From contig CP084167.1 of assembly GCA_021513715.1 (NCBI GenBank), positions 2,304,001 to 2,368,000 of the forward strand: 64,000 bases of DNA, read 5' to 3'. This stretch comes from Candidatus Heimdallarchaeum endolithica (GTDB lineage: Archaea; Asgardarchaeota; Heimdallarchaeia; Heimdallarchaeales; Heimdallarchaeaceae). Position numbers and translations under genes: made by a program. The notes beneath the pieces were generated by a model. The model did no database searches, was not told where the DNA came from, and saw only the letters and a list, made by a program, of their open reading frames with translations. Positions 3,950-64,000 of the stretch are shown here, one piece after another. Within the stretch, counting starts at the first letter, position 1; each line of letters opens with the position of its first letter.

Positions 3950-4058
3950 TTACTACCTTTTTCTATCTTTTTTCAACTTCTTATTAACTTTTCAATTTTT
4001 ATTTCTTATTTTTTCTTTAATGAAAAAAGATTAATTTGTATTATTCAATCTATAAATA

Positions 4059-47992: not shown

Positions 47993-48156
47993 ATTTTATC
48001 CTATTTTTTTTCAAAATATATTTTTAATAAATGCTATTATGCCATAATAAGACAAAATAAATTGAAACGACAAAATAAGAAAGAAAAAAATAAAAGAAAA
48101 AAAACTTTAAAAACAAAGGAAAAATAGAAGAAACGTAAAAGGAAAACAAAAACATA

Positions 48157-48249
48157 GCCGCGATAGCTTAGTCGGTAGAGCATTCGGCTGTTAATCTTAA
48201 GATTTGAATGCACTACGGGTGTAAAAAGAGCAGCAACCGAAAGGCCGAA
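48157..48249 (+). tRNA. tRNA-Asn(GTT) with a 42-nt intron at 37/38, 3'-truncated in the T-stem
   Basis: GCCGCGA acceptor 5' strand; D-arm GCTT/GAGC; anticodon stem TTCGG/CCGAA; anticodon GTT at 48190-48192; intron 48194-48235 with BHB (CTGT/GCAG helix, TAA and CAA bulges, TCTT/AAGA). No TTCG loop or TCGCGGC follows. Confidence 0.88.
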
Positions 48250-48657
48250 TTTCCTATTTTGTGTTTTAAAAATATTTAACACATAAACCAATTTTTAGGT
48301 CGGGAAATGCATAAGCAAATCTGTAAATTTTTTTATAAAAAATAAAAAATCACGACCAATATTAAGGGTGGAGTTGTTAGGAATGGTTTGCTAAAAATCT
48401 AGTATATTGCAAATTCAATTAAAATGGTTTAATAACTGTCAAAAGATCTATTTTTTTTTGAGATAATGAATGTAATTTAACTTACTGTTCTTGTTTATTT
48501 AACCCTTATTTTTTTCCAAACAATTTCTTCATTTTTAGGTATTGTTTTATTTTGTAAAAAGAATTCATCTATGTATTCACACATTCTACACTTTTTGTTA
48601 CAATATTTCTTGTCTTTAATTCTTGGATATAATTGTTTTTCATATTTTAGTCTTTCA

Positions 48658-48674: not shown

Positions 48675-49684
48675 TGTTTACTCAATAGACTTGGGTTACA
48701 CTTTTGGGTACTAGAGAAACATAGGGGTGATTCATAAATCTTTCTCCTGGGGTGAGGAAGTTAAGAGATTGGTGAGGACGACTAAAATTGTAGTAAGAGC
48801 GATAGTAGGAGAGGTCGGGGTTGCAGTATTTTAGACCTAATCTTTCCATCTCACGGATGATTGTCCCATGTAGTCTTTCTACTTTTCCACATGTTTCAGG
48901 GTGAAAAACTCTAGCTCTGATGTGCTTTATTCCTTCTGTTTGACACCAACGGGAGAAGGTACTTGTTCCTCCTCTAACGGAAGAGAAGAGTGCTCCATTG
49001 TCAGTAAGTATAGACTCGGGGTAACCGTACTCTTTTATTGCTTCCTCTAGCAAACTTATTATCTGCTCTTTTTTTGGTGCAAAAGGGTGGAATTCAGCTC
49101 CCAGACAGAATCGTGAGTGGTCGTCTATCAAGGTTATGAGGTGGAGATGTTGTCCCTGTTCTTCTACCCAGAATGGTCCTTTCACATCTATTTGCCAGAG
49201 TTCGTTAGGTTTTTGACGTTCAAAACTCTTGTATCGAGGTCTTTTCCTCTTTTTTCTATTAACCCATAAAGGAAGACCTAACTCTTTTATTACTTTCGTC
49301 ACTGTCGTCTGAGAGAGTGCTTTTCCTTCTCTCTTCAACAAATAAGCTATCTTCTCCACATTCATTCCTTGTTTTATTCTTAACTCCCTTATCCTCTCTT
49401 TTAACTCCTCATCTACTTTCCTGTGTATAGTTTTTGGTCTGGAAGATCTATCTTTCCACCATACTCCTTCAGGGTTCTCTCTGAACCTCTTCAACCACTT
49501 ATACACAAACTTCCTACTCACCATATACTTGTGAGCTACCTCTTTTATCTTCTCTCCTTCCAAAGCTTTTTTAACCACAATCTTTCTTAGTTTCTCCAGG
49601 TTACGTTCGTTTTTGTTCATAATATATCACTTACCCACGTAACCCACTTCTATTTATTTGTTACCAATGTGAGTTGAGTATACA
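48675..49684 (-). mobile_element. IS481-family insertion sequence, 1,010 bp
   Basis: TGT...ACA ends; imperfect IRs (TGTTTACTCAA versus reverse complement TGTATACTCAA); single transposase; 17-bp TSD. Confidence 0.92.
48682..49620 (-). CDS. IS481-family DDE transposase
   Basis: N-terminal HTH (VSRKFVYKWLKRF), PNELWQIDVK, IDDHSR, TDNG, GKVERLHGT, YNFSRPHQSL. Confidence 0.95.
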   Translation of the reverse strand: MNKNERNLEKLRKIVVKKALEGEKIKEVAHKYMVSRKFVYKWLKRFRENPEGVWWKDRSSRPKTIHRKVDEELKERIRELRIKQGMNVEKIAYLLKREGKALSQTTVTKVIKELGLPLWVNRKKRKRPRYKSFERQKPNELWQIDVKGPFWVEEQGQHLHLITLIDDHSRFCLGAEFHPFAPKKEQIISLLEEAIKEYGYPESILTDNGALFSSVRGGTSTFSRWCQTEGIKHIRARVFHPETCGKVERLHGTIIREMERLGLKYCNPDLSYYRSYYNFSRPHQSLNFLTPGERFMNHPYVSLVPKSVTQVY

Positions 49685-49701
49685 ACAAAGGATATAGTCT
49701 T
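49685..49701. repeat. right target-site duplication ACAAAGGATATAGTCTT (17 bp)
   Basis: Identical to 48658-48674. Confidence 0.9.
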
Positions 49702-50514
49702 AGTAATCCTTTTTAGTTCTATATCCTCCTCAGTAAGATCTAATGTTCTTCTTTTCTGTTTATCATTGTTGTTTAGGTACCACAGTTCAGGAATAATTTC
49801 GATATTAGGTTTCTTTATTCTAATGATTTCAGAGTAGATTAGCACTTGTCTTTTGTCTCTAGGCGATTCTTTTCCTGTTTTTAGTTCTATCACTCTTATT
49901 GCTGTTCGATCTACTGTCCAAGCTAAAATGTCTATTCGACCTGTTAAAAGAAATTTTTCTGATAATTCATACTCAATTTTGTATTCGGTTCCTATAACAA
50001 GAGAAATTAGTTTTCCTCTATTATTCTCTTCAACTAAAGTAGAACAAAACATAGCCAAAGTGCGTAAATTAAAATAAAGCTTATCGTCAAACTTTACTTC
50101 TTTTTCTCTTTCAATTATACAATCAAAGTCCTTCTCTCCATCAGGAAAGAAAAATCTTTCTGTCAACTCATATAAAGCGGTAAAAAAAGATTCTTTGACG
50201 GATAGTTTTTCGTGTATGTAAAAATGTTGTACTAAGTCGAAATTGCTTGATAAAACAGATTGTAGAAGTAGATGGTAAAAAGTTCATAGCTCCATAGATC
50301 TTGAAGAAGAAGCATACTCTCTCAATTTATTCATTTTAAGTAGAACTGCAAAATATGGTCTTATTGTACAAAAATCATCTTCAAGAACATCAGTAACGCT
50401 AATACTAACATGTTTTTGGAACATGATATTCACGCTAATCTTTAATCTTTTAATTAATTTATAAAAAAGAAAAAAACATAGTCAAAAGTAACACATCTTA
50501 TTTTTTTTATTATT

Positions 50515-51969
50515 ATGTTTATATATCGAAATGTTATTTTTGAATTTGAAATGGCTTCAAGAACACATATTCAAGAATATGAATCATGTATTGTTTTCCA
50601 GAAATTTATGATCGAAGAAAACATACTTGTTAATTTCTGTAAACATATCGATTTTGGCATAGATGGTGAGCTGGATATATTACAAGAAGAGCCAAGGGAT
50701 GATTTTTACGAAGAACGTAGAGCAGTAGATATAGATTTAAGGAAAAAGGCTTTTGTTCAACTCAAATCTAAAAGAGAAAAAAGTAGGGTAAATGAAGATG
50801 GAACTGTTTCATATAGCTTTAAAAAACGACATTTAAAACTATGGCAAAATTCGCCCATACCCGTTTTTGTTTTTTTGGTTTACCTTGATGACTCAAAAGA
50901 GATCTATTGGACATATGTTGATATTGACTTACAAATAGAAGAAGGGGAATCGGAATGCCAAAACCTTACTCTTGAAAAACTAGAAGGGGGATGTAGAAAT
51001 AAATTCAATAAGATAATTGAGGAGCATTATAAAAAAACAGGATACAAATATAATGTCTCAACAAAATTACCAATGTTTAGAGATTTTATTGAAAGGAGAA
51101 AGCAAGGTTTAGAACTAAGAAAAAGTTTGATTTTCAAGGAATTAAATCCAATAGAAGATAAAAAAGCTAAAATGTTAAGTCCTTTTCCTAAATCAGGATT
51201 AAGAAAAAAAATCTCATTCTCAGAATATGCCTTATCTATAGATGATTTCTATGAAAAAATAGATGACGATGAATACATTAATGAGTTTTTTAGCCGTAAA
51301 TCAAGGATAGAAAGCAATATTATTGAGAGTGTATATAAAGCAGAAGTAGCAAAGATAAAATATGATCTTGTAAATAATCACGAAACTTTTTTTGCTGATA
51401 GTTGGATTGAAATATTTGAAAATATAACAAAAATAACAGAGGAATATACAAGACCTATTTTGTTTATTAATAGTGAACTAAGAGATATTATTCGAGGGAT
51501 TCCTGCAGCAGATAGACCTAGTCTAGTAAATCAAGTTCTTCATAATTCAAAAGAAGATGCAATATCACATTCTCATTATGAAAACATAATAAATGGAAAA
51601 AATGTTTATTTCTATTTCTTTTATATTCCTAGACACTTAACTAAAAAGTTTCCTGTGTTAAACGATATTAAAATAATTATTTTAGATAGAGAAAAGGTAA
51701 AATATATTGTTAAAGAGCCATTAAGATTAGAATGGAGGACGATTACTAGGCCAGTTCAAGTTGATATTATCGATGGCGCAGCATATAAAGTTACAAAAAA
51801 AGAAGAAGAGTGGGATTGGTTTGACTTTACTTGTTATACTGTAGGAGAAATAAGAAATGAAGGACCAATAAAAATATACAAATTTTCCGAAGATGAGAAA
51901 AAGGAATTACAAGACTTTGAAGATAGACTAATAAAACTTACAAAATCAAGAAAAATTACCAAGGGATAA
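50515..51969 (+). CDS. DUF4365-type PD-(D/E)XK domain protein with unknown C-terminal region
   Basis: DFGIDGELDI...FVQLKS...HLKLW...PVFVFLV...IYW. Confidence 0.75.
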   Translation: MFIYRNVIFEFEMASRTHIQEYESCIVFQKFMIEENILVNFCKHIDFGIDGELDILQEEPRDDFYEERRAVDIDLRKKAFVQLKSKREKSRVNEDGTVSYSFKKRHLKLWQNSPIPVFVFLVYLDDSKEIYWTYVDIDLQIEEGESECQNLTLEKLEGGCRNKFNKIIEEHYKKTGYKYNVSTKLPMFRDFIERRKQGLELRKSLIFKELNPIEDKKAKMLSPFPKSGLRKKISFSEYALSIDDFYEKIDDDEYINEFFSRKSRIESNIIESVYKAEVAKIKYDLVNNHETFFADSWIEIFENITKITEEYTRPILFINSELRDIIRGIPAADRPSLVNQVLHNSKEDAISHSHYENIINGKNVYFYFFYIPRHLTKKFPVLNDIKIIILDREKVKYIVKEPLRLEWRTITRPVQVDIIDGAAYKVTKKEEEWDWFDFTCYTVGEIRNEGPIKIYKFSEDEKKELQDFEDRLIKLTKSRKITKG

Positions 51970-51990
51970 TCGCGTTTATTTTTTATTTAC

Positions 51991-52290
51991 TTATTCGTCT
52001 ATTATTTTTTGTATTTCTTGTATAAATTCTGCTACTTTCATTCCTTTTTCTGTTAGGCTAAAAACACGTTTATTATAAGGTGGTAAGTATTCCTCTTCTA
52101 TGAGTTCAAGGACGAGAAGTTTGTTAAGTGAAGTATAAACAGATGTTTGTGCTATACCAGGTATATTATCTATCAGTTGTGTGATCATTGCTTTTTTTTC
52201 AGATAATAGGTATAACAGTATCCTAAGAGCTCCTTTTTGTTCAAGCAAAGAAAGGGAACCTTCTCGTTCTCTCATTCTTCGGTATCCCAT
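51991..52290 (-). CDS. winged-HTH regulator (HxlR/MarR-like)
   Basis: LRILLYL...SVYTSLNKLLVLELIEE...FSLTEKGMKVA. Confidence 0.85.
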   Translation of the reverse strand: MGYRRMREREGSLSLLEQKGALRILLYLLSEKKAMITQLIDNIPGIAQTSVYTSLNKLLVLELIEEEYLPPYNKRVFSLTEKGMKVAEFIQEIQKIIDE

Positions 52291-52460
52291 ACCCTTAAAC
52301 TGTCTAAGAGCTAAAAAATATTCTTATACGCATAATGTATGCATATATACAAAGGTTTTATATATCGGTAGCCATATAATACTTATAGGTGGATAGTGAG
52401 CGACGGAAAAAAATGAAAACAACCTAAGGAGTGATGAAAAAAGAATGATGGGTCAAAGAT

Positions 52461-52754
52461 ATGAGAAGAAAAGAAGAAAAAAACGTATATACGCCTTCTT
52501 CTGTAGTCTGTTCCGCATATAAATATATAGGGGACAAAGAGTTAGGTGTTTTGTGGATAAGTATTCAACTAGAGGGTGTAAAGCCTGATTTTTATAGTTT
52601 TGTTAGTAGATCATTTATTGGAAAAAAGTTTCTTTTATTTTTTTCTGCCTTTATAAATTATTTTTATGATAATATTGTAAACAACAAAACAAGAGGAGGA
52701 AAGAGAAGGATTTCTTCACTTCAAAAAAGTGAAACCGTGTGGTGGAGTTTATGA
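52461..52754 (+). CDS. hypothetical protein
   Basis: 97-aa ORF overlapping the next start; no motif recognised. Confidence 0.35.
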   Translation: MRRKEEKNVYTPSSVVCSAYKYIGDKELGVLWISIQLEGVKPDFYSFVSRSFIGKKFLLFFSAFINYFYDNIVNNKTRGGKRRISSLQKSETVWWSL

Positions 52755-53923
52755 CTGTAAGTGAAAGGGGAAAGGATAAGTTTTTTTCAAATGTCTATTA
52801 TGATTTTAAAGGGGAAAAAAATCGACTCTCTACCGAAATAATTCCGTTTGAGTTTGAAGCAGTAATACGAGAGGAACATCTGATTACTGTTAAAGATATT
52901 AGAATAAAGGCAGGAATAAAATATCATCTGCATATTAAAAGTTTGGAGACAGATCAAAAATTACAAGGAGTAGACCTTTTAATTAGAAAACGTGGAGAGA
53001 AGATAGTTTTTACTTTGTCGCATCGAATGAAAAAACTGTTCAAAAAAGGAGAAAAAGTAAAGGTTAGTATCTTTTGTCCAACAGAGGAGTTTTACGGAAG
53101 AAAACAAAAAGAAGGAATAAGAGATGTATCCATCCACAACGATGAGATCTTGTGTATAGCTTTTATCTATCAAATGGGAGAAAATAAAGGACTAATCAGT
53201 CTCAATAGCGAAAATGAAGAGTATTTGTCAAAATTAGAAGGAATACAAGAGACTTTTCATATCTTGGATGATAGAATAATAAGGAGAGATGAGGAAGGAA
53301 ATGTCCCCTTTGAAGCTAAAAGTTACTCTAATTATGCAATAATAAGATACTACACGATAATGAACAGGTATGATTTCATAAAGAATCAAGAAAATCACTC
53401 TTCTGTTTATACTTATTTCGTAGGAGATGAAAAAATCCTTCCTACAGTAACATCCGTCAAAGCTTGTTTAGTGATAGTAATAAACAAGTCCTTGATTCCT
53501 ATATGTCTAGAAGAGAGAGTAAGAAAAGAAATAAACATGTTTCTGGACAAAAAAATGCCTTTATTTAAAATACAAGACCAACTTTATGAATTGAAAAGAG
53601 TAATTTTACAATATATTAGAGCGTATTATAGACCTATCATAGCAGAAGAGACGTACAACGAGTTCAACATTAAATCAATGATTTTTCATTTAAACCGCAA
53701 AACTTCTCCTGTATACAAAGCAATTATATCCCTCGTATCTTTTGATAACTACATCTCAGTAGAAAAACTGGTGAACTATGTAGAAGAGAAGTATAAAATA
53801 AAAGATAGACGTTACATCAGTGAATCGTTAACAGAACTGATAAATCTTGGAATTATAAAAAGAAAGGTTGAGGACGGAAAAGTAGGGGTAGGGGTTGTGA
53901 GATCATATGATGAAAAAAGATGA
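52739..53923 (+). CDS. hypothetical protein with C-terminal wHTH-like domain
   Basis: C-terminus ISVEKLVNYV...ISESLTELINLGII; overlaps the ATPase start, suggesting an operon. Confidence 0.7.
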   Translation: MVEFMTVSERGKDKFFSNVYYDFKGEKNRLSTEIIPFEFEAVIREEHLITVKDIRIKAGIKYHLHIKSLETDQKLQGVDLLIRKRGEKIVFTLSHRMKKLFKKGEKVKVSIFCPTEEFYGRKQKEGIRDVSIHNDEILCIAFIYQMGENKGLISLNSENEEYLSKLEGIQETFHILDDRIIRRDEEGNVPFEAKSYSNYAIIRYYTIMNRYDFIKNQENHSSVYTYFVGDEKILPTVTSVKACLVIVINKSLIPICLEERVRKEINMFLDKKMPLFKIQDQLYELKRVILQYIRAYYRPIIAEETYNEFNIKSMIFHLNRKTSPVYKAIISLVSFDNYISVEKLVNYVEEKYKIKDRRYISESLTELINLGIIKRKVEDGKVGVGVVRSYDEKR

Positions 53924-54707
53924 ACAAGGAAAAGTAGTGAGTTTTTTCAGTTTTTCAGGAGGAGTAGGTAAAACGACTTTGGTTGTTAACATTGCTAAAA
54001 TGTTAGCCGAACAAGGAAAGAAAATAATAGTGCTAGAACTAGAATTACTCTCACCTAAATACCAAACTATTTTTGGTTTTAATCCTGCGAAATCTATAGA
54101 TGAACTATATATGCAAAACTATAGAAACAATCTTGAACTAGAAACGGTTGATAGAATAATTAAGAAAAGTATAATTACAAACGATTATGGAGTAGATTTC
54201 ATTATCCCTACTGCTCCCACAACAATAGAAGATCTAATTAACAGAGATAGAGACTATAATCATAAAGATTTTGCAAACTTTATAAGAAATTTACTAGCTT
54301 ATCTGAGGAAGAAATACGAGCTAGTGTTGATAGACTCTCCAAGTATAACGAACACCGAAATAATGAGTGTTTTACTGCTATCAGATAAATTAGTTTATGT
54401 CTGTATTCCCCCTTTGGAAGATATATCTGAGGGAATAGAACAAATAAAAAAATTTCCAGAGAGTACATTCATCGATCCAATTGATGTGATAATAAACAAA
54501 GTACCAGTAGAAACAGAAAAAAAAAGACAAATATTGGAAAGAAAAATGAAAGAACGACTAAAGAAAGAAAAAATAAACAAAGTAAGAATAGTAGAATTAT
54601 CACTAAATTATATAAAAGAGAATGTAAAAGAAAGGAGAATATACATAGAAAAAGAAAAGGAAAAAAACATTTATCAAACACTGCTAAACTACAGTAAAGA
54701 ATTATAA
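53907..54707 (+). CDS. MinD/ParA-family ATPase with atypical motifs
   Basis: VVSFFSFSGGVGKTT, NIAKMLA, YELVLIDSP, IINKV. Confidence 0.88.
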   Translation: MMKKDEQGKVVSFFSFSGGVGKTTLVVNIAKMLAEQGKKIIVLELELLSPKYQTIFGFNPAKSIDELYMQNYRNNLELETVDRIIKKSIITNDYGVDFIIPTAPTTIEDLINRDRDYNHKDFANFIRNLLAYLRKKYELVLIDSPSITNTEIMSVLLLSDKLVYVCIPPLEDISEGIEQIKKFPESTFIDPIDVIINKVPVETEKKRQILERKMKERLKKEKINKVRIVELSLNYIKENVKERRIYIEKEKEKNIYQTLLNYSKEL

Positions 54708-54860: not shown

Positions 54861-56243
54861 CTATTTTCTCTTATTTTTTAAAAGAAAGAGGAGATTTTTA
54901 ACCGAGAAAATAGAAACGAAGGATAAAGGAGTGAGAACGATTATCAAGTACATTATTTGGTTTTTGATTAAGGGATTGGTATGGTTATAAAATTCTTCAA
55001 GATTGGTTAAACCATCACCATCAAGGTCAAGATAAGAGTCATTAGTTAAAGGGTCAGAACCATAATGAACTTCCCAACCGTCAGGTAAAAGGTCTCCATC
55101 CGAATCAGGATTCCAGGGGTCAGTACCATAAAGATGATCTTCAAGATAATCTAGTAGCATGTCTTCGTCGAAATCGCTTCCACGAGGAAAAGGGTCAAAA
55201 GCTTTAGCTTTTCCATCGATAGGGTAAGGTTCAGAGCCATCGGTATCTGACCAATAGTTACCAATAGAATAGACGGGGTCAAACCAGGTGTTATTCGCTC
55301 CATCATCAAAAGCTTGAGAAAGATTATTACCTTTATTGTTCTTGAAAAAAACGTTACGTGAGATAAAGTTGTTAGAAGCAGCTTTGTGAACAAACAGTCC
55401 ATACTCACTGTTATTGAACAAAACATTAGAAGAAAGGTGATTGTTAGAACCACCTAAAAATATCCCACTTTTTCTGCTCTCGGAAATAACGTTATCGGTA
55501 ACGGAGTTGTTATCCCCACTTACGCTTATTCCTTTATAAAAAGTATAAGTAATAGTATTATTTGTTATGATGTTATTATGTCCTGAACCATAAATTCCAT
55601 GTGCTCCACTATACGATATGTAGTTATTAGTAATAATGTTAAAACAACTTTCAGTCATATCAATACTTTTTCCACTATTATGAGAAATATTATTACCACT
55701 AACCAAATTGTGAGAACCGTGTTGGATTCTTATTGCTCCCCGAGTATGAGTTATAAAATTGTTAATAACGACGTTATCAGAACTGTATAAACGTATTAAT
55801 TCGCGAGAATAAGTTCGATTGGTTCCACCAACAAGAGTGGAACCCTCAAGGTGAAGATGGGCGTTATCCCATGCTCCAATATCCCAAGGACTGTCAGTGT
55901 AAGTTAGAATGGTTGTATCATAGATCTCTAAAGAAGAATTGTCTATAGCATAAATACTTAGAGAACCCACTCTATCATGTTCAATAACAATAAAACAATT
56001 ACGAAGAATAAGAGAGCCTTCGTCCTTGATAAGAACTCTGTTGATAAGTTTAATAAACTCGTTTTCAACTACAGTAGGTTCAGTAATGTTCCAAATACCT
56101 TCCGGAGGAGGAAAGGTTCCTGAGCTAGATGCAGAAGAAGTAACTAGAGGACTAAAAGTAGGTGAAAAGAGCAGGAGAGAAGAAAAAATCACAAGTAAAA
56201 GCACGAACGAATTATTTTTCCTTTTTGTTAGAATAAAAAGCAT
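54861..56243 (-). CDS. cell-surface protein: right-handed beta-helix (NosD/CASH) plus DxDxDG Ca-binding repeats and a C-terminal TM
   Basis: Signal peptide; GIx[ILV]xGxxNxIxxNxI repeats; GNYWSD; DSDGDLLPDGWE and DLDGDGLTNLEE; TM followed by KNKRK. Confidence 0.85.
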   Translation of the reverse strand: MLFILTKRKNNSFVLLLVIFSSLLLFSPTFSPLVTSSASSSGTFPPPEGIWNITEPTVVENEFIKLINRVLIKDEGSLILRNCFIVIEHDRVGSLSIYAIDNSSLEIYDTTILTYTDSPWDIGAWDNAHLHLEGSTLVGGTNRTYSRELIRLYSSDNVVINNFITHTRGAIRIQHGSHNLVSGNNISHNSGKSIDMTESCFNIITNNYISYSGAHGIYGSGHNNIITNNTITYTFYKGISVSGDNNSVTDNVISESRKSGIFLGGSNNHLSSNVLFNNSEYGLFVHKAASNNFISRNVFFKNNKGNNLSQAFDDGANNTWFDPVYSIGNYWSDTDGSEPYPIDGKAKAFDPFPRGSDFDEDMLLDYLEDHLYGTDPWNPDSDGDLLPDGWEVHYGSDPLTNDSYLDLDGDGLTNLEEFYNHTNPLIKNQIMYLIIVLTPLSFVSIFSVKNLLFLLKNKRK

Positions 56244-56378: not shown

Positions 56379-56466
56379 AAACGTCTATAAAAACTATCGA
56401 CATTTTTGAGAAACGTCTATAAAAACTATCGACATTTTTGAGAAACGTCTATAAAAACTATCGACA
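56379..56466. repeat. 32-bp direct tandem repeat AAACGTCTATAAAAACTATCGACATTTTTGAG, about 2.75 copies
   Basis: Exact copies at 56379-56410 and 56411-56442, partial copy 56443-56466; no spacers. Confidence 0.95.
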
Positions 56467-56972: not shown

Positions 56973-57051
56973 ACACTCTCCTTTAAGTTTATTTTTAAGC
57001 ATAATAGTGCTTCTTTTTGTTCTCTCTCAAAGAAAATAAAGGTGGATAAGA

Positions 57052-60000
57052 ATGGAGAAAATAAAGATAAAGAAAAAGTTAACAATTTATTCAATTTTAA
57101 TAATATTACTATTCTCTAATTTAAGTGGATTGAATTTTAAGTTTTTACAAGCAGAAAATGGAGACCAGAGTCCTCCATCTATACTCAGAGTTACACAGTT
57201 TCCTGAAATTCCTACCCAATTCGATGGAGTAGTAGTTTATGTAGAAGTGGAAGATGAAACAGGGTTTAGTTCAATATATTTAATGTATGAGAGAAACAAT
57301 AACTTAACATCCATACCAATGAAGTATTTACCCAATTATTATGGAAATGGAACATGTTTTTATGCTTCTCTTCCTTCTTTTTCAGCAGGAACTAGAATAA
57401 CTTATTTTATCGAAGTGACTGATTCGAGTGAGAATCAGAATATTGCACACTCACTAAAATATGATTATGTGGTGGTGAGTGATGGAATACCAAAAATAAA
57501 GTTATTAAACGAACCAAAATTTCTGTATTCGGAAGAAGAATATACTTTCCAGTTTACAATTTATGATGAGGATAATATCTCTCTTCAAGATACGGGAATT
57601 GATCCACCTTTATTATATTACAGAACAGAAAGAGTAGAAGGAACACAACAAGTAGTTTATAATTCCACGTCAGAAGTATTTGAAAGCGTTTTACCTTCCG
57701 TTAGTTTACTAGATGGAGAAATAAAGGAAGGAGAAAAGATAGAGGTGTGGGTAGGAGCTTATGATAAAAGTCCTGCACACCAGTATGGAGAGAGCCAACA
57801 TTTGCAGTTACCAGTCATTAACGAGAAACCTTACATTTACGGTGTGGATAGATACCCATATATTCCTTTGTATAATGAAAGTTTCAATTTAACCACAACA
57901 ATCTATTATAGAGAAAATATAGGTATGAATATCACGCAAGTATCGGCAACTATAAACCGATATGATGAGGTTACACAAAAAATTACAAAGCAAAGTTATA
58001 TTTTAACCCAAAGTGAATATTCAAAATTTGTATTTACAGGAATAATAGAACCGATTGGATATATAGATAATATAGAACTAAAAATAAATTGTAAGTATAC
58101 TTCAGATTACCAAATAGAAGAAGCAGAAGTAGAAAAACAAGAAAAAAGTTTTAGCGTAAGAGATTGCGAAGCTCCAGCGATATTAGAAAGTGGATTTAGC
58201 AGCGGAGTAACAACATTAAAAGAAGGAGAAGAAGTAAAAGTCTATGCCAATGTATTAGATCGTTTGAATACAAAAGATGTCACTGCAATAGTTACTGAAG
58301 AGTATAAATCAGGATTGCAACTTATTCGTTCATCAAAGGAATATTTTCAAAAATTGAGTTACTATGGAGATGATGGAATAAGTTTTATTCAACAGATGAG
58401 TATTGATCAGAGTATAAGTGGAGATTTTTATTTTGATGGATTAGTTCTAAAAGAAGAATATGTGAGTAAAGTTAGAAAAGAAGCAGCAAGCGAAACATTA
58501 TCTATTTACGCAGTAGAAGGAAAAAATGAATTATTTATAAAAATCATAAATCCTGAAGGGTTTTTACCATTAAACTATAACCAATTGGTTATACAAGCAC
58601 GTGCTATAGGACAAGATATTCTTTTAGCAGGAGTATATGCGGATTTAGGAGAAACAGTAATTTGGAATGAAACAGTAGGAAATTACGTTTACGATAATGT
58701 GTTGCCTATAGACAAGTTTTTTTCTACAGATGAATACGGGACAGCTTGTTTATACAATCTTCAAAATATCGAAGATATTACTAATTCAATATGGCTAAAA
58801 TTCGTTCCTGCTGATGGAGGAAATTTTAGTTCATCTGATGGTTTAAGTATTGATAATATTAGATTGTTCAGTATAAATACTCTAAATGGTGAAAGAATAG
58901 ACTGTTATCATCAAGAAATAAATCATGATTTTGTTGAATATTACGGTTATTATCAAGCTAAAAAGGTTGATCAATTAATAACTTTCTATATCCAAGCGAG
59001 CGACGGAATAAATATCCAAACCCAAAATAATGAGGAAACAATAATAGTAACTGATGGTAAACCTCCTACATTTGCCATTAATCAAATATCGGGAGTGGAT
59101 ATAGAGGATACTGAACTTAAATTTAGTATGGCTATAACTGATTATTCTATAATAGATCCAACTGATGCATTAAATGTCTGTTTTCATTACAAGATTAACG
59201 GATTAGAAGAAATAATTGTAAACTTAACAGTTGCTAATAACTGGGATGAAAAAGGAAAAGTGTGGGTGTATAATTTTAACAATACAACAATATTGAATTT
59301 CAATGATATGTGGGAATATTGGTTCAGTGCAGAAGATCCTTGTGGTAATCGTGGAGAAAGTAAACATTACTCTTTTGTTGTAGAAGAAAATAGTGCACCT
59401 ACAATATCTTTAACTTGTCAAACAGTTACATATAATGGAGAAGAAAAAACAGTTGTTGAACCCGCAGGGGCAGAAATAGGAATATCTGGAGAATATTTAG
59501 ACATAAACATGGATATAACAGAGAATGAAGGAGGAAGTGGAATAAAACTTATCCAGCTATATTGGTATACTTCTTCTCACGAATCCAATTGCTGGAGTTC
59601 AGAAGTATATAGTTTTATGTCTGTCTATTCCATCACTGATTTGACTGTAGCAGAAAAAATGATACATAATTTCGATAAAGTAGGTATACTTTATTATTAT
59701 GCACAAGTAATTGATCATGCAGGAAACATTTATCAAACACCAGAATATCAAGTACAGTTAATAGATAATGTAAAGCCTATAATAAAAATCAACTCTGAAT
59801 ATAATAGCCCAAATGGGTTGTATAATGTCGACAATTCGTATGGTGATATAAGCTATAATGAAGATGCATATATCACTTTAGAAATAGAAGATGCATCAAC
59901 TATAACTAACCTAATTTTGGAGGCAGAAACATCACAAGGTACCTTTGCAGGAGAAGTTATATGGGACGAATATTATCATGATTGGACATTACAACATTAT

Positions 60001-63000
60001 CAGATTAAAGTAAATAAAGCGTGGGAAGTAGGAGAAAATATCAATTTAAAGATTACAGCGGTAGATTCTTTTGGAAATGCACTAAACAATTTTCTATTAG
60101 GTACAGAATACATTATAGATAAACTTCCTCCTGTTTTACTCTCCTATTCGGATAATAATCCTGAACTAGGGGGAGGAGAAATAACTATTTCTTACCAAGT
60201 TAAGGATATAGGAAGTGTTGTAGCTTACCTTTATTATAATTTTAATTCGTCAGTGGAAACACCCTCAACTGAAAACGCTACTCTTTCTGATTTTCAAGTG
60301 GCTGTAATGGAACTTGAATCAATAGACGATACAAAATACGCACCTTATATTGAATGGTCATTTACCAAAACATTATCTCTACCATTAGAAATATTATATC
60401 CTGCAGTATCAATATATTTTGTAGCATTAGACGAATACAATAACAGTTTAACATGTATTGGAGGAAAAGCATATTCCCTACCTAATTTTGATATAGAAAC
60501 AAGTATTTACACTCCCAAGATTGAATCATATAAAAAACTCGCTGATAAATTTGGAGATTTTAGAGAATACCCCAGAGATAATGTTGATAAAAGATGGGTG
60601 GGAGAAACAGAAACAACGATAATTTCCTATGACTTCAGTGTAGAAGAAAATTTTTCTATAAACTATGCTCATCCTTATGGAGATAGATTTGCAAAAAGCG
60701 TATTGGAGTTTTATACTAGGGGTTGCCAAAATAGTTACTACGCACTTGGAGAACCAGATGGAAACATGGCGGAGGTAGGAGAATATATACGTTTAGACAT
60801 GGAGTATGAAGGAAAAATATTGAGTAAGCCTGGAGATGGAGAAGATTTTAAAGTTTATGGGGGAGCAGGACAATATCAAGTAATATTAATAAAAAATGCA
60901 TTGTCTCCCTTGCCAGCATATTATCATCTAGGAACAGGAACGGGTATAACTTCTTGGGACTTAGAAGCAGTGGGTTTAGATGAAGTAAGATATATAGAAA
61001 TATGGAATGAAAACACTGATAACTCTCCAGTTTATATTGATGCAATAGAAGCAATACATTGTGATGGGGATAGTTTCACCGGTCAAGAATGGCAAAATGC
61101 AGAAGAAAATAACGGAATTCCTGCAAATATAGTAGATAAGCAACTTTCAATGTATTACCATGGTTATAATGGAAACAATGAAATATTAGAAACCACGGTC
61201 AATCCTGAGTTTTACGACTACTTGTACATACCTCTATGGATGAATACCTATCTCCCTCAAATAAAACTGTCAATCAACTTTGTACAACAAGCTTATTCTG
61301 TTGATCTTTTTGCAGTAGATAATATAGCAAAGGATTCTTTGATGCAAAATGGAAATTATGTGCATCTAGGAAAAATAGATGGCTCTGGAGTGTATTATTT
61401 TGCATGTTCATACCCTAATAGATACACAGGTGTGTTATTCAAAATAAGACATAGCTGGGAAAGAATAACGAGCGAACTTGTTCAAATGTACAATTATGAA
61501 TTTACGCTTGATTATATTAAATTATTTGGAATTTTTTATAGAATAGAAGAATTATCAGGACCAAATTATTCAGAATTTGAAAAAATGTATGAAAAAAATA
61601 GCGGGAGCAATCCTGATCCTCTATTTTTACAAATGGAAAATTATAATGGTGAAAATCAGAAAAGTGCAAGTATAGATAATATCCATGAGGAAATATGGGC
61701 TGATGCAATTAATGAATTGGAAATTTTTGGTGGTACAAAAGGAGAATGGTTTTATCTCGCAATAGATAGAGCAAGTGAGCAACCTAATAATCCCATTGTT
61801 ACGGATGTTCAAGTTGTTTATGTAGACGGAGAAAGATTATATTGGAAAAATGCATATAATAACCAAAAAAGAATAGCCTTAATTTTTGACACTTTAGAAT
61901 TCTATGAAACTTATGGAGTGAGTAATTACTTTTACATTATGTCAAATGCCACAATTGAGGGAAAAGGATTTACAGCTTACTATTATTCTTTTTATTCTAA
62001 TAATGAACTGTTAGAAGGGTTCAACTATGAAGGAATACCTCAGGCAGATTTCAGGACAGGTGATGCACTTAACCCCACTCTTGAAGATACAAGTTACGAT
62101 TCTCCATGGTGGAATAACCCATTAGATTTTACCTCTCTCAATTCGGATAAACACGGGTGTATAGTCGTACAAATCCAAGAAAATCAGTCGGGTAATATTG
62201 ATTATCTAAATTTTGAAGGATATTACTCTTTCTTATTGGATGATCTTTATCTTGGTGGAGAAGAATTACATACACATAGAATCGGTTATCTCCCTATACA
62301 TATAGAAGGATTTAGCTACTATAGTGGAATAATGGACGGTTTTTATATTACTGACGATATAAAACCCAAATTAAGATTGCAGACATCTATAGCAAATCTT
62401 TATTCTCACCCCTTAGAATTAAGCTATGTTCTTCCTCTCGAGTTTATTGATTATGGAGAAGGGTGGTTACCCAGAGAAATAAAAGATTATGATACTAGTT
62501 ACTTAGATAATGAAAGATATAGATGGTTAGAGGTAGAATTTCACAATAAGATTCAATATGCTATTACAGAACTAAATAATGATTCATGCACACTTTTTCA
62601 GAAAGTGTTCGATACTCAATCAAATGAGATTTATTTTGAAGAGAGCTATACTCATTATAAAAGTAAAAATATAGATAATGAACTCACAAAGAGTTTCTCT
62701 CATATAATTCCTGAATCAGAAGCTATTTTTCCAAGTTCATATCAAGATTTTACTTACAAGTCAAGCTTAAACTATGTAGGAAATATTTCTTCTTCAGATT
62801 ATGTAGAAGTTGATTCACCAGAGATTAAAATAGGAAATACAAAAAAAGAAGATTCAAATATAAATGAACAATATGAAAGAGCGAAAGATGAATACAGATT
62901 TTATTATTTCTTGCCATATGAAAGCGATACAAATTCTATTGCTTTTGTGAATATTTCATCTAAAACTATAAGATTTGATGATGAAGCTTGTACTCCAAGT

Positions 63001-64000
63001 AATATAATAGACAAGATAAACATAAAAGCTCATTTATCTCTCGATATAGGGGAAAGCTTAGAACAAGTTTCAATTTACAAGATATACGCAATAGATATTG
63101 AAAATAAAGAACATGTTTTATACTCATCCAATTATGATGAATACTATTTCAATTATACAAGCGATTTAAATTATGAAATAGACTTAAATGTTTCAGCAGA
63201 TTCAGCGTATTTCTACATAATAAAAGAATTTAAAGTAGAATTTAAAATAAAAACCTTTACAGCAAGTGCTCAAGATGTAGTAGAAATATGTTTTGCAGAG
63301 TTGAAAGTTATCACTGATGAATTTTTACCCTATGATGTCATCTATCCAAAGGATACATCACCACCTTCAATCGATCTTATTCCTGTCTCTCCTCTGAGTC
63401 TAGAAAATAACATTTGGACGTTTACATACTCCGCAGAAGATTATTCAGGATTGAAAAATAATCAGTTCCAATATCGTATAAAATATGATTGGGGAGGAAT
63501 AGATGATCAAGGTATAGTATATTCTAAATCCGATAGTTATTCAGAATACATGGTTTTTAATCTTGGAGATGAATTCAATATTTTTAGCCCTAGTCCTCAA
63601 ATTGAGGGGGATGTTACCTATTATGCAAAGCGACTATGGCTGGAAATTTATGCTGTGGATGGTTCAATATGGGAAAATGAATATTTCTATGAAAAAACAT
63701 GGCAGATAGATGATGGGATCAGTCCTTGGATAGAACAACAATTTAACTATCTTATTGTGCAAATGTACAATGATAATCAACTTATCTGGACAGAAGCGAA
63801 AGATATTGCTGGAGTAAATACAGTTGAACTCATAATAGAAAATATTGAAGATTTTCATCATAACATCTATCAAATCAATGATATTTACACCTTAAACAAA
63901 ATTAACAATAGATGGTATTTAGGAGATGATTTAACTCCATTTAGTTTTTACAAATATGGAGAAGAGAAAATCCTACCTTACAAAGTAAATTACTATTATA
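57052..64000 (+). CDS. giant secreted/surface protein, more than 2,316 aa, 3' end outside the window (not in ORF track)
   Basis: AGGTGG SD then ATG 57052: MEKIKIKKKLTIYSILIILLFSNLSG (signal peptide). The frame read open wherever translated, including the last line (...EEKILPYKVNYYY), and the track reports no closed ORF in this frame. Recurrent DxxPPxI Ig-like domain starts; many NxS/T sequons. Confidence 0.92.
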   Translation, partial: MEKIKIKKKLTIYSILIILLFSNLSGLNFKFLQAENGDQSPPSILRVTQFPEIPTQFDGVVVYVEVEDETGFSSIYLMYERNNNLTSIPMKYLPNYYGNGTCFYASLPSFSAGTRITYFIEVTDSSENQNIAHSLKYDYVVVSDGIPKIKLLNEPKFLYSEEEYTFQFTIYDEDNISLQDTGIDPPLLYYRTERVEGTQQVVYNSTSEVFESVLPSVSLLDGEIKEGEKIEVWVGAYDKSPAHQYGESQHLQLPVINEKPYIYGVDRYPYIPLYNESFNLTTTIYYRENIGMNITQVSATINRYDEVTQKITKQSYILTQSEYSKFVFTGIIEPIGYIDNIELKINCKYTSDYQIEEAEVEKQEKSFSVRDCEAPAILESGFSSGVTTLKEGEEVKVYANVLDRLNTKDVTAIVTEEYKSGLQLIRSSKEYFQKLSYYGDDGISFIQQMSIDQSISGDFYFDGLVLKEEYVSKVRKEAASETLSIYAVEGKNELFIKIINPEGFLPLNYNQLVIQARAIGQDILLAGVYADLGETVIWNETVGNYVYDNVLPIDKFFSTDEYGTACLYNLQNIEDITNSIWLKFVPADGGNFSSSDGLSIDNIRLFSINTLNGERIDCYHQEINHDFVEYYGYYQAKKVDQLITFYIQASDGINIQTQNNEETIIVTDGKPPTFAINQISGVDIEDTELKFSMAITDYSIIDPTDALNVCFHYKINGLEEIIVNLTVANNWDEKGKVWVYNFNNTTILNFNDMWEYWFSAEDPCGNRGESKHYSFVVEENSAPTISLTCQTVTYNGEEKTVVEPAGAEIGISGEYLDINMDITENEGGSGIKLIQLYWYTSSHESNCWSSEVYSFMSVYSITDLTVAEKMIHNFDKVGILYYYAQVIDHAGNIYQTPEYQVQLIDNVKPIIKINSEYNSPNGLYNVDNSYGDISYNEDAYITLEIEDASTITNLILEAETSQGTFAGEVIWDEYYHDWTLQHYQIKVNKAWEVGENINLKITAVDSFGNALNNFLLGTEYIIDKLPPVLLSYSDNNPELGGGEITISYQVKDIGSVVAYLYYNFNSSVETPSTENATLSDFQVAVMELESIDDTKYAPYIEWSFTKTLSLPLEILYPAVSIYFVALDEYNNSLTCIGGKAYSLPNFDIETSIYTPKIESYKKLADKFGDFREYPRDNVDKRWVGETETTIISYDFSVEENFSINYAHPYGDRFAKSVLEFYTRGCQNSYYALGEPDGNMAEVGEYIRLDMEYEGKILSKPGDGEDFKVYGGAGQYQVILIKNALSPLPAYYHLGTGTGITSWDLEAVGLDEVRYIEIWNENTDNSPVYIDAIEAIHCDGDSFTGQEWQNAEENNGIPANIVDKQLSMYYHGYNGNNEILETTVNPEFYDYLYIPLWMNTYLPQIKLSINFVQQAYSVDLFAVDNIAKDSLMQNGNYVHLGKIDGSGVYYFACSYPNRYTGVLFKIRHSWERITSELVQMYNYEFTLDYIKLFGIFYRIEELSGPNYSEFEKMYEKNSGSNPDPLFLQMENYNGENQKSASIDNIHEEIWADAINELEIFGGTKGEWFYLAIDRASEQPNNPIVTDVQVVYVDGERLYWKNAYNNQKRIALIFDTLEFYETYGVSNYFYIMSNATIEGKGFTAYYYSFYSNNELLEGFNYEGIPQADFRTGDALNPTLEDTSYDSPWWNNPLDFTSLNSDKHGCIVVQIQENQSGNIDYLNFEGYYSFLLDDLYLGGEELHTHRIGYLPIHIEGFSYYSGIMDGFYITDDIKPKLRLQTSIANLYSHPLELSYVLPLEFIDYGEGWLPREIKDYDTSYLDNERYRWLEVEFHNKIQYAITELNNDSCTLFQKVFDTQSNEIYFEESYTHYKSKNIDNELTKSFSHIIPESEAIFPSSYQDFTYKSSLNYVGNISSSDYVEVDSPEIKIGNTKKEDSNINEQYERAKDEYRFYYFLPYESDTNSIAFVNISSKTIRFDDEACTPSNIIDKINIKAHLSLDIGESLEQVSIYKIYAIDIENKEHVLYSSNYDEYYFNYTSDLNYEIDLNVSADSAYFYIIKEFKVEFKIKTFTASAQDVVEICFAELKVITDEFLPYDVIYPKDTSPPSIDLIPVSPLSLENNIWTFTYSAEDYSGLKNNQFQYRIKYDWGGIDDQGIVYSKSDSYSEYMVFNLGDEFNIFSPSPQIEGDVTYYAKRLWLEIYAVDGSIWENEYFYEKTWQIDDGISPWIEQQFNYLIVQMYNDNQLIWTEAKDIAGVNTVELIIENIEDFHHNIYQINDIYTLNKINNRWYLGDDLTPFSFYKYGEEKILPYKVNYYY

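What the first reader, a model, noticed from the sequence alone, without database searches (positions are those of the whole stretch)
57052..64000. Unannotated giant ORF (more than 2,316 aa) with modular Ig-like repeats
Seen: the ORF track misses it because no stop occurs in the window. A signal peptide is followed by repeated domain-start motifs: DQSPPSI (57163), DGIPKI (57481), DCEAPAI (58162), DGKPPTF (59053), ENSAPTI (59386), DNVKPII (59764), DKLPPVL (60118), DTSPPSI (63352), DDGISPWI (63709). Several units end in a Y/W-x-x-x-A-x-D-x-x-G-N-like strand. The protein is rich in Tyr, Glu, Asp and Asn and in N-glycosylation sequons. No obvious DNA-level repeats, suggesting old, diverged domain duplications. 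Inference: an extended beads-on-a-string surface filament or adhesin.
Basis: partly seen in the sequence, partly recalled or inferred. Interest (0 to 1): 0.85.

Follow-up and report, generated by a model that had tools for sequence, protein, structure and literature searches.

The report
Aloposon giant surface protein, first twin
The open frame is real, but it is the already published first "twin giant" gene of a mobile element (aloposon) in the Asgard archaeon Ca. Heimdallarchaeum endolithica: a 4,225-residue membrane-anchored surface protein, about half of it detectable Ig-like modules, whose function is still untested.

Summary
The ORF is real. It starts at window 57052, runs past the window end and stops at genome position 2,373,729 (4,225 aa). 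It is intact in the sister species (91% identity, dN/dS 0.15).

The genome fits Ca. Heimdallarchaeum endolithica PR6. The locus has the three defining features of the "aloposons" of Wu et al. 2022 (PMC8813620): tandem giant genes, a tRNA just downstream, and ParA-containing upstream genes. I infer it is Aloposon2. "Unannotated" is therefore a window-edge artefact.

The Ig-like reading is supported:
- Twenty diverged ~90-aa repeats are detectable.
- AF2 folds the first two as beta-sandwiches (pLDDT 80.6).
- They match FN3/E-set modules (Z about 12).

However, only about half of the protein is assigned. A central stretch of roughly 1,000 aa (about 1,600 aa in the paralog comparison) is not conserved between homologs. 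It holds one CBM32/discoidin-like jelly roll; the remaining 760 aa have no detectable relative.

Sequons are not enriched. They are specifically avoided in residues 2400-4000, and likewise in both paralogs.

Best reading: a Sec-exported, C-terminally anchored stalk or adhesin that works with the translationally coupled 5,541-aa second giant. This role is untested.

This scan has already followed up the two sister giant pairs in the same genome.

The parts
57041..57045 (+). Shine-Dalgarno-like GGTGG, 6 nt before the ATG at 57052
   Evidence: Read directly from the sequence.
57052..64000 (+). First 2,316 codons of the 4,225-codon giant gene. The full gene is genome C1:2361052-2373729 (L002:1053-13730).
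   Evidence: Intact 4,223-aa ortholog in the sister species, dN/dS 0.15.
57052..57153 (+). Signal peptide-like N-terminus (residues 1-34): Lys-rich start, hydrophobic core, then L-Q-A before E-N-G-D
   Evidence: Sequence. Hydropathy peak at residues 10-28. The same layout occurs in both paralogs. No signal-peptide predictor was available.
57163..58404 (+). Ig/FN3-like units 1-4 (residues 38-124, 146-238, 257-348, 371-451)
   Evidence: Iterative HMM. AF2 model of residues 36-250 has pLDDT 80.6 and shows two 7-strand sandwiches. Foldseek and VIA matches are to FN3/E-set modules.
58405..59052 (+). Unassigned insert (residues 452-667) between Ig units, conserved with the HeimV2 paralog
   Evidence: The phmmer block 386-957 matches the paralog. 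There is no match to my Ig or jelly-roll profiles.
59053..60363 (+). Ig/FN3-like units 5-8 (residues 668-762, 783-888, 905-1005, 1023-1104)
60685..61065 (+). Galactose-binding-domain-like (CBM32/discoidin-type) jelly roll, residues 1212-1338
   Evidence: This is the only part of residues 1101-2100 with relatives among 1.84 billion representatives (14 proteins, 34-43% identity). AF2 pLDDT is 73-91. VIA Z is 9-11.4 to BtuG, IFT25, CBM32 modules and F-lectins. No Pfam hit.
61066..63345 (+). Orphan central region, residues 1339-2098, fold unknown
   Evidence: Only orthologs are found. AF2 pLDDT is below 50. No hhalign match. It is not alignable to the paralog or to the G002 homolog.
63352..63582 (+). 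Ig/FN3-like unit 9 (residues 2101-2177), the first unit of the C-terminal array, which continues beyond the window
   Evidence: Eleven more units lie at residues 2572-4152 (L002). A TM anchor lies at about residues 4181-4203, followed by a 22-aa basic tail.
50515..54707 (+). Four consecutive upstream element genes: DUF4365 protein (484 aa), a 97-aa ORF, a 394-aa protein, and a ParA/MinD-like ATPase (266 aa)
   Evidence: Pfam. The 394-aa and ParA genes have same-order homologs beside the other two giant pairs. The gene order is the same in the sister species.
54861..56243 (-). Divergent beta-helix (NosD/Beta_helix, TSP3) protein gene between ParA and the giant
   Evidence: Present in the sister species' copy of the element.
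56379..56466 (.). Perfect 32-bp tandem repeat (2.8 copies) in the divergent intergenic region upstream of the giant
   Evidence: The same unit occurs twice at the same place in the sister species and, at 0 mismatches, nowhere else in either genome.

Best explanation
This is the first of the two tandem giant genes (the Otus/Ephialtes pair) of a published integrative element. I infer the element is Aloposon2 of Ca. Heimdallarchaeum endolithica PR6.

The gene encodes a 4,225-aa type I surface protein with these parts:
- A Sec-type signal peptide.
- An ectodomain of about 4,140 aa.
- One C-terminal transmembrane helix.
- A short basic cytoplasmic tail.

The ectodomain has two arrays of FN3/E-set Ig-like modules, with at least 20 detectable units. 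These arrays are conserved among homologs. They flank a centre that is not conserved between homologs. In this copy the centre carries a CBM32/discoidin-like jelly roll plus about 760 aa of unknown fold.

The 1,600 aa nearest the membrane avoid N-glycosylation sequons.

The most likely mechanism is inferred, not shown. The Ig arrays act as a long spacer, roughly 100 nm if extended. The variable centre provides ligand (glycan) specificity. The glycan-free proximal array is a protein-protein docking surface or passes through the cell envelope. The protein acts together with the translationally coupled 5,541-aa second giant in contact with other cells or surfaces. That contact could benefit the mobile element that carries the pair.
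For: Identity with the published element:
- The genome is one 3,326,783-bp archaeal contig at 30.8% GC. The paper reports 3.32 Mbp for PR6.
- The second ORF of 5,541 aa starts 2 nt after the stop of the first, with AGGAGG inside the end of gene 1.
- An intron-bearing tRNA lies about 35 nt after giant 2.
- ParA and three further genes lie upstream.
- The element is shared with the sister species, next to a different tRNA. The other aloposon's giant is not found there. This is as the paper describes for Aloposon2 and Aloposon3.

Real, constrained gene:
- dN/dS is 0.15 overall and 0.06-0.30 in every 250-codon window. Lengths are 4,225 and 4,223 aa.

Surface topology:
- A signal-like N-terminus and a C-terminal hydrophobic helix with a K/R tail occur here, in both paralogs and in the G002 homolog.

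Ig modules:
- 18-20 HMM units are detected.
- The repeat profile matches streptococcal surface protein R28 (PDB 8cxj_D), E = 1e-5.
- The AF2 model has pLDDT 80.6.
- Foldseek gives at least 500 hits at E <= 1e-3; the roughly 40 listed rows are almost all tandem FN3/Ig proteins.
- VIA gives Z 12.0 to the Lmo2446 N-domain and 9.9 to CBM56.

Jelly roll:
-.

Variable centre:
-.

Sequon avoidance:
- Residues 2400-4000 have 3 sequons against 19.7 expected, with 0 of 2,000 shuffles as low.
- N-x-S/T occurs 3 times against 20 for the mirror motif S/T-x-N. The paralogs show 3 against 18 and 2 against 17.
- An STT3/AglB gene is present.
Against: - No expression, localisation or binding data exist. No RNA run was available.
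- About half of the protein has no assigned fold.
- No signal-peptide or TM predictor could be run. My hydropathy peaks at both ends are only 1.64-1.67 on a 19-residue Kyte-Doolittle window.
- A ligand-binding part in the middle of a C-terminally anchored rod is not the usual adhesin layout, in which the tip binds.
- The jelly-roll fold is also used for protein-protein contacts (IFT25, SUN, BtuG), so glycan binding is not implied.
- This copy lacks the S8 protease gene that precedes the other two pairs, so the three cassettes may not work identically.
Confidence: 0.55

Rival explanations
1. The first giant is the stalk or presenting partner of a contact-dependent polymorphic-effector system. 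The payload would be the second giant, whose C-terminal part is exchanged between strains. The first giant only positions or holds it.
For: - The two genes are tightly coupled.
- The second giant has an N-terminal membrane anchor.
- Its last roughly 1,300 aa are highly diverged between the two species (dN 0.26-0.35, dS about 1; one 250-aa window within it is lower, dN 0.13). Its first 1,250 codons have dS of about 0.
- Earlier notes of this scan propose the same for the sister pairs. These are leads, not evidence.
Against: - Neither giant of this pair has a recognisable toxin, nuclease or immunity domain in Pfam.
- I did not look for an immunity gene.
- A diverged tail alone does not show an effector.
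Confidence: 0.2
2. It is an envelope or S-layer-like structural protein that remodels the host's own surface, for example for attachment to mineral or for shielding. It would have no role in cell-cell contact or in the element's spread.
For: - It is surface anchored and built of Ig-like arrays.
- The same Ig unit occurs in ordinary surface proteins of 67 of 151 sampled genomes of the phylum.
- According to the paper, the organism was retained only in rock-containing transfers.
Against: - The gene is found only on mobile elements of two genera, among 201 sampled genomes.
- Three divergent paralog pairs sit in one genome.
- It is always paired with a second giant.
- The centre is variable rather than a conserved lattice-forming body.
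Confidence: 0.12
3. It is a structural or host-recognition component, like a tail fibre, of a virus-like particle encoded by or related to the element.
For: - Wu et al. call the related HeimV2 a virus-aloposon hybrid and report machine-learning tail-fibre predictions there.
- Ig-like and CBM-like modules are common in phage fibres (my own knowledge).
Against: - A signal peptide and a C-terminal membrane anchor with a basic tail are present.
- There is no PHROGs hit.
- No capsid, portal or terminase family appears among the upstream genes I scanned.
- The element is chromosomal in both species.
Confidence: 0.06

Closest known systems
Aloposon twin giants 'Otus' and 'Ephialtes' of Ca. Heimdallarchaeum (Wu et al. 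2022, PMC8813620)
   Same: This is the same genome and the same kind of locus: tandem 3,000-6,000-aa genes, a tRNA downstream, and four upstream genes including ParA/MinD. It is homologous to the first giant of HeimV2 (E 1e-180).
   Different: Nothing differs in kind; this is one of them. The text I could read gives no function. Extended Data Fig. 7 marks CDD domains, but figures are not held, so I could not see what it marks. The module map, the variable centre and the sequon-free proximal part reported here may therefore be additions. This copy lacks the S8 protease gene that precedes the other two pairs.
Giant bacterial repeat adhesins (SiiE, LapA, MpIBP)
   Same: They are multi-thousand-residue surface proteins built from dozens of Ig-like beta-sandwiches, with ligand-binding modules of other folds. 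SiiE and MpIBP appear among the structural matches.
   Different: They are exported by type I secretion, with a C-terminal RTX signal and an N-terminal retention module. This protein has a Sec-type signal and a C-terminal TM anchor, no Pfam RTX or Big hit, and no sequence relationship.
PrgB / aggregation substance of enterococcal plasmid pCF10 (PMC10588982)
   Same: It is a surface-anchored adhesin encoded by a mobile element, with an Ig-like stalk plus a separate adhesin domain. By that paper's abstract, it promotes cell aggregation and mating-pair formation. This is a functional analogy for why a mobile element might carry such a gene.
   Different: It is about 1,300 aa and bacterial, with cell-wall anchoring, and it is linked to a type IV secretion system. 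No transfer machinery was recognised in the aloposon genes I scanned. No homology was tested or claimed.
E-set/FN3-like accessory modules of glycoside hydrolases (Lmo2446 N-domain PF22681, CBM56 PF22184, Big_7 PF17957)
   Same: These are the best structural matches of the repeat unit: 4kmq_A at Z 12.0, rmsd 2.1 over 98 residues, and 5t7a_B at Z 9.9. Canonical members of the same repeat family in related proteins score near the Pfam cut-offs for these families.
   Different: The units of this protein themselves reach no Pfam threshold; the best is E 0.065. No catalytic domain is attached.
CBM32 / discoidin (F5/8 type C) galactose-binding-like domains
   Same: Residues 1212-1338 have this fold (Z 9-10, rmsd about 2.8-3 over about 110 residues). 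The weak ESM Atlas leads point the same way.
   Different: There is no sequence match to Pfam or PDB. The top Z values are to BtuG and IFT25, which bind non-sugar partners. Ligand-binding residues are unknown.

Membership tests
Aloposon (Wu et al. 2022) | Tandem genes encoding proteins of 3,000-6,000 aa | tested here: met
   4,225 aa followed by 5,541 aa, with a 2-nt gap.
Aloposon (Wu et al. 2022) | Integration at a tRNA site downstream of the giant genes | tested here: met
   An Rfam tRNA (59 bits) lies about 35 nt after the stop of giant 2. In the sister species a different tRNA lies 26 nt after it.
Aloposon (Wu et al. 2022) | [quoted passage not shown] | tested here: met
   Window 50515-54707 holds four plus-strand ORFs, the last matching AAA_31/CbiA/ParA. 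Two of them have same-order homologs in the other two elements.
Aloposon (Wu et al. 2022) | Identity with the element named Aloposon2 in the paper | tested here: inconclusive
   No coordinates are given in the text or the held supplements. I infer the identity because only this pair is shared with the sister species, and there at another tRNA, as the paper says of Aloposon2 and Aloposon3.
Ig-like / FN3 (E-set) beta-sandwich repeats | Seven-strand beta-sandwich fold of the repeat unit | tested here: met
   AF2 pLDDT 80.6. Foldseek gives at least 500 hits at E <= 1e-3. 205 PDB chains score Z >= 8. Profile against PDB 8cxj_D gives E = 1e-5.
Ig-like / FN3 (E-set) beta-sandwich repeats | Match to a curated Pfam Ig/FN3 family above its cut-off | tested here: not met
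   0 families for the whole protein at E <= 1. The best single unit scores E 0.065 to CBM_56.
RTX-type giant adhesins (SiiE/LapA/MpIBP) | C-terminal RTX repeats and a type I secretion signal | tested here: not met
   No Pfam hit. The C-terminus is a TM helix plus a basic tail.
CBM32 / F5_F8_type_C | Sequence match to the family model | tested here: not met
   No Pfam hit for the protein or for ten relatives over that stretch. No PDB sequence match.
CBM32 / F5_F8_type_C | Galactose-binding-domain-like jelly-roll fold | tested here: met
   VIA Z 9-11.4 with 108-126 aligned residues, on the confident part of the model.
CBM32 / F5_F8_type_C | Carbohydrate binding | not testable with these tools
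   This needs a glycan array or ITC with recombinant residues 1195-1345.
Cadherin | Cadherin domain model and D-x-N-D-N type calcium linkers | tested here: not met
   No Pfam hit. The best PDB sequence match is protocadherin at E 0.48. The linker here is D-x2-P-P-x-I.
PGF-CTERM / archaeosortase-sorted surface proteins | P-G-F motif before the C-terminal helix | tested here: not met
   The C-terminal sequence has no P-G-F. No NCBIfam hit.
CdiA / filamentous haemagglutinin type | FHA/haemagglutinin repeat models | tested here: not met
   No Pfam or NCBIfam hit.

The most novel reading that the evidence does not exclude
The twin giants are the aloposon's own intercellular contact device. The first giant would be a stalk of roughly 100 nm with a swappable ligand-recognition centre and a deliberately glycan-free base that docks the second giant. 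Together they would bring Asgard cells into contact, so that the element, or an effector carried on the second giant, passes between cells. That would be a new, archaeal, mobile-element-encoded cell-cell contact system in the lineage closest to eukaryotes.
Probability: 0.15. Interest if true: 0.8.

Novelty: already known. Interest (0 to 1): 0.38.

Why it matters
The aloposon giants are among the largest archaeal proteins. They sit on mobile elements of the Asgard lineage closest to eukaryotes, and the papers I could search assign them no function.

This work gives a concrete, testable map of the first giant:
- A signal peptide.
- A conserved distal Ig array.
- A centre that is not conserved between homologs and carries a lectin-type module.
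- A sequon-free proximal Ig array.
- A membrane anchor.

From this map follow specific experiments: glycopeptide mapping, glycan binding by residues 1195-1345, pull-down of the proximal array with the second giant, and cryo-ET for long surface filaments.

As a discovery it is modest. The gene is published, and giant Ig-repeat surface proteins are a familiar kind.

Tried and rejected
- Pfam, NCBIfam and PHROGs gave 0 hits for the whole protein. Pfam also gave 0 hits for the second giant and for the paralog's centre.
- The 5.8-billion-protein search returned only P0003. The repeat profile searched with 'longer' lengths returned nothing, which is weak evidence.
- AF2 on residues 1118-2100 failed outside the jelly roll (mean pLDDT 36.7). 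The fold of residues 1339-2098 is therefore unknown. It is not shown to be new.
- hhalign of 15 unassigned segments against my Ig and jelly-roll profiles gave probabilities no higher than 11%.
- PDB sequence searches gave nothing significant: nothing below E 0.48 for the whole protein and nothing for the jelly-roll profile. A mis-built profile from A3 was uninformative.
- ESM Atlas scores of 0.81-0.83 are leads only.
- No RNA holder was listed. Contig fragments in four metagenome runs show presence only.
- I looked for direct att repeats of the tRNA at the far end of the element. I found an inverted truncated tRNA copy instead and did not resolve the element's left boundary.
- A mid-protein TM helix, which could have explained the sequon-free part as cytoplasmic, was rejected. 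Hydropathy peaks at 2433-2451 and 2485-2503 reach only about 1.2.

Full report
**Observation**

An ATG at window 57052 opens a frame with no stop up to base 63999, giving 2,316 codons. A GGTGG lies 6 nt upstream of it. The window is G000:C1:2304001-2368000 of a single 3,326,783-bp contig. In the genome the frame continues to 2,373,729, giving 4,225 aa.

The strict form D-x2-[PA]-P-x-[ILVFM] occurs 9 times against 0.2 expected from shuffles. There are no DNA-level repeats in the ORF.

The claim of sequon richness fails: 33 observed against 45.6 +/- 6.0 expected.

**Where it lies**

The genome has an archaeal 16S rRNA and 30.8% GC. Notes of this scan pointed me to Wu et al. 2022. I read that paper.
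- It reports a 3.32-Mbp circular genome of Ca. Heimdallarchaeum endolithica PR6.
- It describes "aloposons" as elements with three features: tandem genes for 3,000-6,000-aa proteins (Otus and Ephialtes), a tRNA site downstream, and four consecutive upstream genes including a MinD/ParA-like ATPase.

All three features are present here.
- *Tandem giants.* A second ORF of 5,541 aa starts 2 nt after the stop of the first, with AGGAGG inside the last codons of gene 1.
- *tRNA downstream.* An intron-bearing tRNA lies about 35 nt after the second giant.
- *Upstream genes.* Four plus-strand genes at 50515-54707 end in a ParA-like ATPase. Two of them have same-order homologs next to the other two giant pairs of this genome.

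The genome holds three such pairs. The pair beside the 16S gene fits the paper's HeimV2.

Only our pair has a counterpart in the sister genome (G001, 3.08 Mb). There it has 91% identity and the same gene order, but it lies next to a different tRNA. This is what the paper says of Aloposon2 and Aloposon3. The assignment is an inference, because no coordinates were available.

**Is it a working gene?**

Yes.
- The ortholog has 4,223 aa and only four gapped alignment columns.
- dN/dS is 0.15 overall and 0.06-0.30 in every 250-codon window.
- A third allele (P0003, 92% identity, also 4,225 aa) comes from a JGI metagenome.
- Fragments occur in vent and sediment metagenomes.

**Anatomy**

*Ends.* The N-terminus has a Lys-rich start, a hydrophobic core and an L-Q-A site. 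The C-terminus has a hydrophobic helix (about residues 4181-4203) followed by a 22-aa K/R-rich tail. Both paralogous first giants and a homolog in another genus have the same layout. I infer a type I surface protein. No dedicated predictor was available.

*Repeats.* I ran an iterative HMM seeded with residues 36-143.
- It finds 18 units at E <= 1e-3 and 20 with relaxed settings.
- It finds 12 and 15 units in the two paralogs.
- In this protein they lie at residues 38-1104 (eight units), at 2101-2177, and at 2572-4152 (eleven units).

Several results support an Ig/FN3-like fold.
- A profile of the units matches streptococcal surface protein R28 (PDB 8cxj_D) at E = 1e-5 over its whole length.
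- AF2 on residues 36-250, with the repeats themselves as the alignment, gives pLDDT 80.6 and two seven-strand sandwiches.
- Foldseek returns at least 500 PDB hits at E <= 1e-3. The listed ones are almost all tandem FN3/Ig proteins, including CbhA, Ihog, SiiE and MpIBP.
- VIA gives Z 12.1 to a xanthanase module, Z 12.0 to the Lmo2446 N-domain (rmsd 2.1 over 98 residues) and Z 9.9 to CBM56.

The same unit occurs in ordinary-sized proteins of 67 of 151 sampled genomes of the phylum. There its more canonical members score near the Pfam cut-offs of CBM_56, Ig_Rha78A_N and Big_7. The units of this protein reach no Pfam threshold.

*Centre.* Residues 1101-2100 were scored against 1.84 billion representative proteins.
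- Apart from the ortholog cluster, only residues 1198-1339 have relatives: 14 proteins at 34-43% identity.
- These relatives are M14 peptidases, an arylsulfotransferase-domain protein and small signal-plus-anchor surface proteins. None has a Pfam model over that stretch.
- AF2 is confident only there, with pLDDT 73-91 for residues 1212-1338.
- The fold is a galactose-binding-domain-like jelly roll: BtuG Z 11.4, IFT25 Z 10.1, CBM32 modules and F-lectins Z 9-10, and 40 chains at Z >= 8.
- The remaining 760 aa (residues 1339-2098) are unassigned.

*Conserved ends, variable middle.*
- The HeimV2 paralog aligns to residues 6-290, 386-957, 2565-3460 and 3705-4216, but not to 957-2565.
- A cassette in another genus (G002:C7) reads ParA, a 183-aa ORF, S8 protease, first giant, then a second giant of at least 3,545 aa.
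- In that cassette the first giant is split into overlapping ORFs of 1,551 and 2,566 aa. It matches only our residues 42-1073 and 3124-4225.
- The C-terminal 1,126 aa find homologs in 2 of 59 genera among 201 sampled genomes of the phylum.

*Sequons.*
- Residues 1-2399 carry 27 N-x-S/T sequons.
- Residues 2400-4000 carry 3, against 19.7 +/- 3.8 expected. None of 2,000 shuffles was that low.
- The mirror motif S/T-x-N occurs 20 times in residues 2400-4000.
- The membrane-proximal parts of the two paralogs show the same pattern: 3 against 18, and 2 against 17.
- The two other alleles of this gene show the same depletion.
- The genome has an STT3/AglB gene.
- This directional depletion is an observation. 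Its cause is not shown. It could be a buried protein-protein surface or passage through the envelope.

**Mechanism**

The shown and inferred steps are as follows.
- *Shown by sequence:* operon coupling with the second giant, modular architecture, purifying selection, and carriage on a mobile element.
- *Inferred:* export, anchoring, and an extended stalk. At about 4 nm per FN3-type module (my own knowledge), 20-30 modules give roughly 100 nm.
- *Also inferred:* ligand recognition by the variable centre, and cooperation with the second giant.

The second giant has an N-terminal anchor. Between the two species its first 1,250 codons have dS of about 0. Its last roughly 1,300 aa have dN mostly 0.26-0.35, with one 250-aa window at 0.13. 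This keeps a polymorphic-effector reading open.

A known functional analogy is PrgB, a plasmid-encoded adhesin with an Ig-like stalk. It is an analogy only.

**Differences from the sister cassettes**

S8 protease genes lie directly upstream of the other two pairs but not here. Instead there are two features between ParA and the giant:
- a divergent beta-helix gene;
- an intergenic region of about 800 nt with a perfect 32-bp tandem repeat.

**Verdict**

The feature is real, and the Ig-repeat surface reading is largely right. The gene is already published as an aloposon giant. I found no follow-up on its function in the library.

The additions from this work are the module map, the variable centre with a lectin-type fold, and the conserved sequon-free proximal part.

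Noticed in passing
window 56379-56466: A perfect 32-bp tandem repeat (2.8 copies) lies between the divergent beta-helix gene and the giant gene. The same unit occurs twice at the same place in the sister species. It occurs nowhere else in either genome at 0 mismatches. It could be an iteron, a ParA-system centromere or a regulator site.
   Followed up: partly
window ~48085-48250 (+), compared with L003:10394-10508 (-): This is an inverted, 3'-truncated copy of the downstream tRNA, with anticodon loop reading GTT (Asn-like). It includes about 65 nt of identical 5' flank and the intron. Both copies point into the element. This is not the direct-repeat pattern expected of simple tRNA integration.
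   Followed up: partly
G000:C1:2373732-2390357 (L004), second giant: Between the two species the first 1,250 codons have dS of about 0. The last roughly 1,300 aa have dN mostly 0.26-0.35 and dS of about 1, with one 250-aa window lower at dN 0.13. The gene is therefore a recombination mosaic with an exchanged or fast-evolving tail. No Pfam family was found in its 5,541 aa.
   Followed up: partly
L030/L031 (G002:C7:24000-63999): A genome of another genus in the same family carries a related cassette on the minus strand: ParA, a 183-aa ORF, S8 protease, a first-giant homolog, then a second giant of at least 3,545 aa. The first-giant homolog is split into two ORFs (1,551 and 2,566 aa) that overlap in different frames.
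   Followed up: partly
window 48682-49620 (-) and 49654-50166 (-): An rve-family IS transposase with at least five further identical or near-identical copies in the genome sits next to a truncated PD-(D/E)XK gene. Homologs of that gene lie beside the other two giant pairs.
   Followed up: partly
G000:C1:2087387-2092429: Two beta-helix genes (82-85% identical to window 54861-56243) and a truncated ParA (93%) lie together about 270 kb upstream. This is probably the degraded aloposon remnant mentioned in the paper's Extended Data Fig. 7 legend.
   Followed up: no
P0005, P0006, P0008-P0012, P0014, P0016 (alignment A4): These form a family of small (190-360 aa) proteins with a signal, the same unnamed jelly-roll domain, sometimes one Ig-like domain, a TM helix and a basic tail. 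Six Asp residues are invariant. No Pfam model covers the domain.
   Followed up: partly
L002:1053-13727, giant A against its G001 ortholog: dS varies from 0.075 to 0.68 between 250-codon windows. This suggests recombination tracts inside the gene.
   Followed up: no
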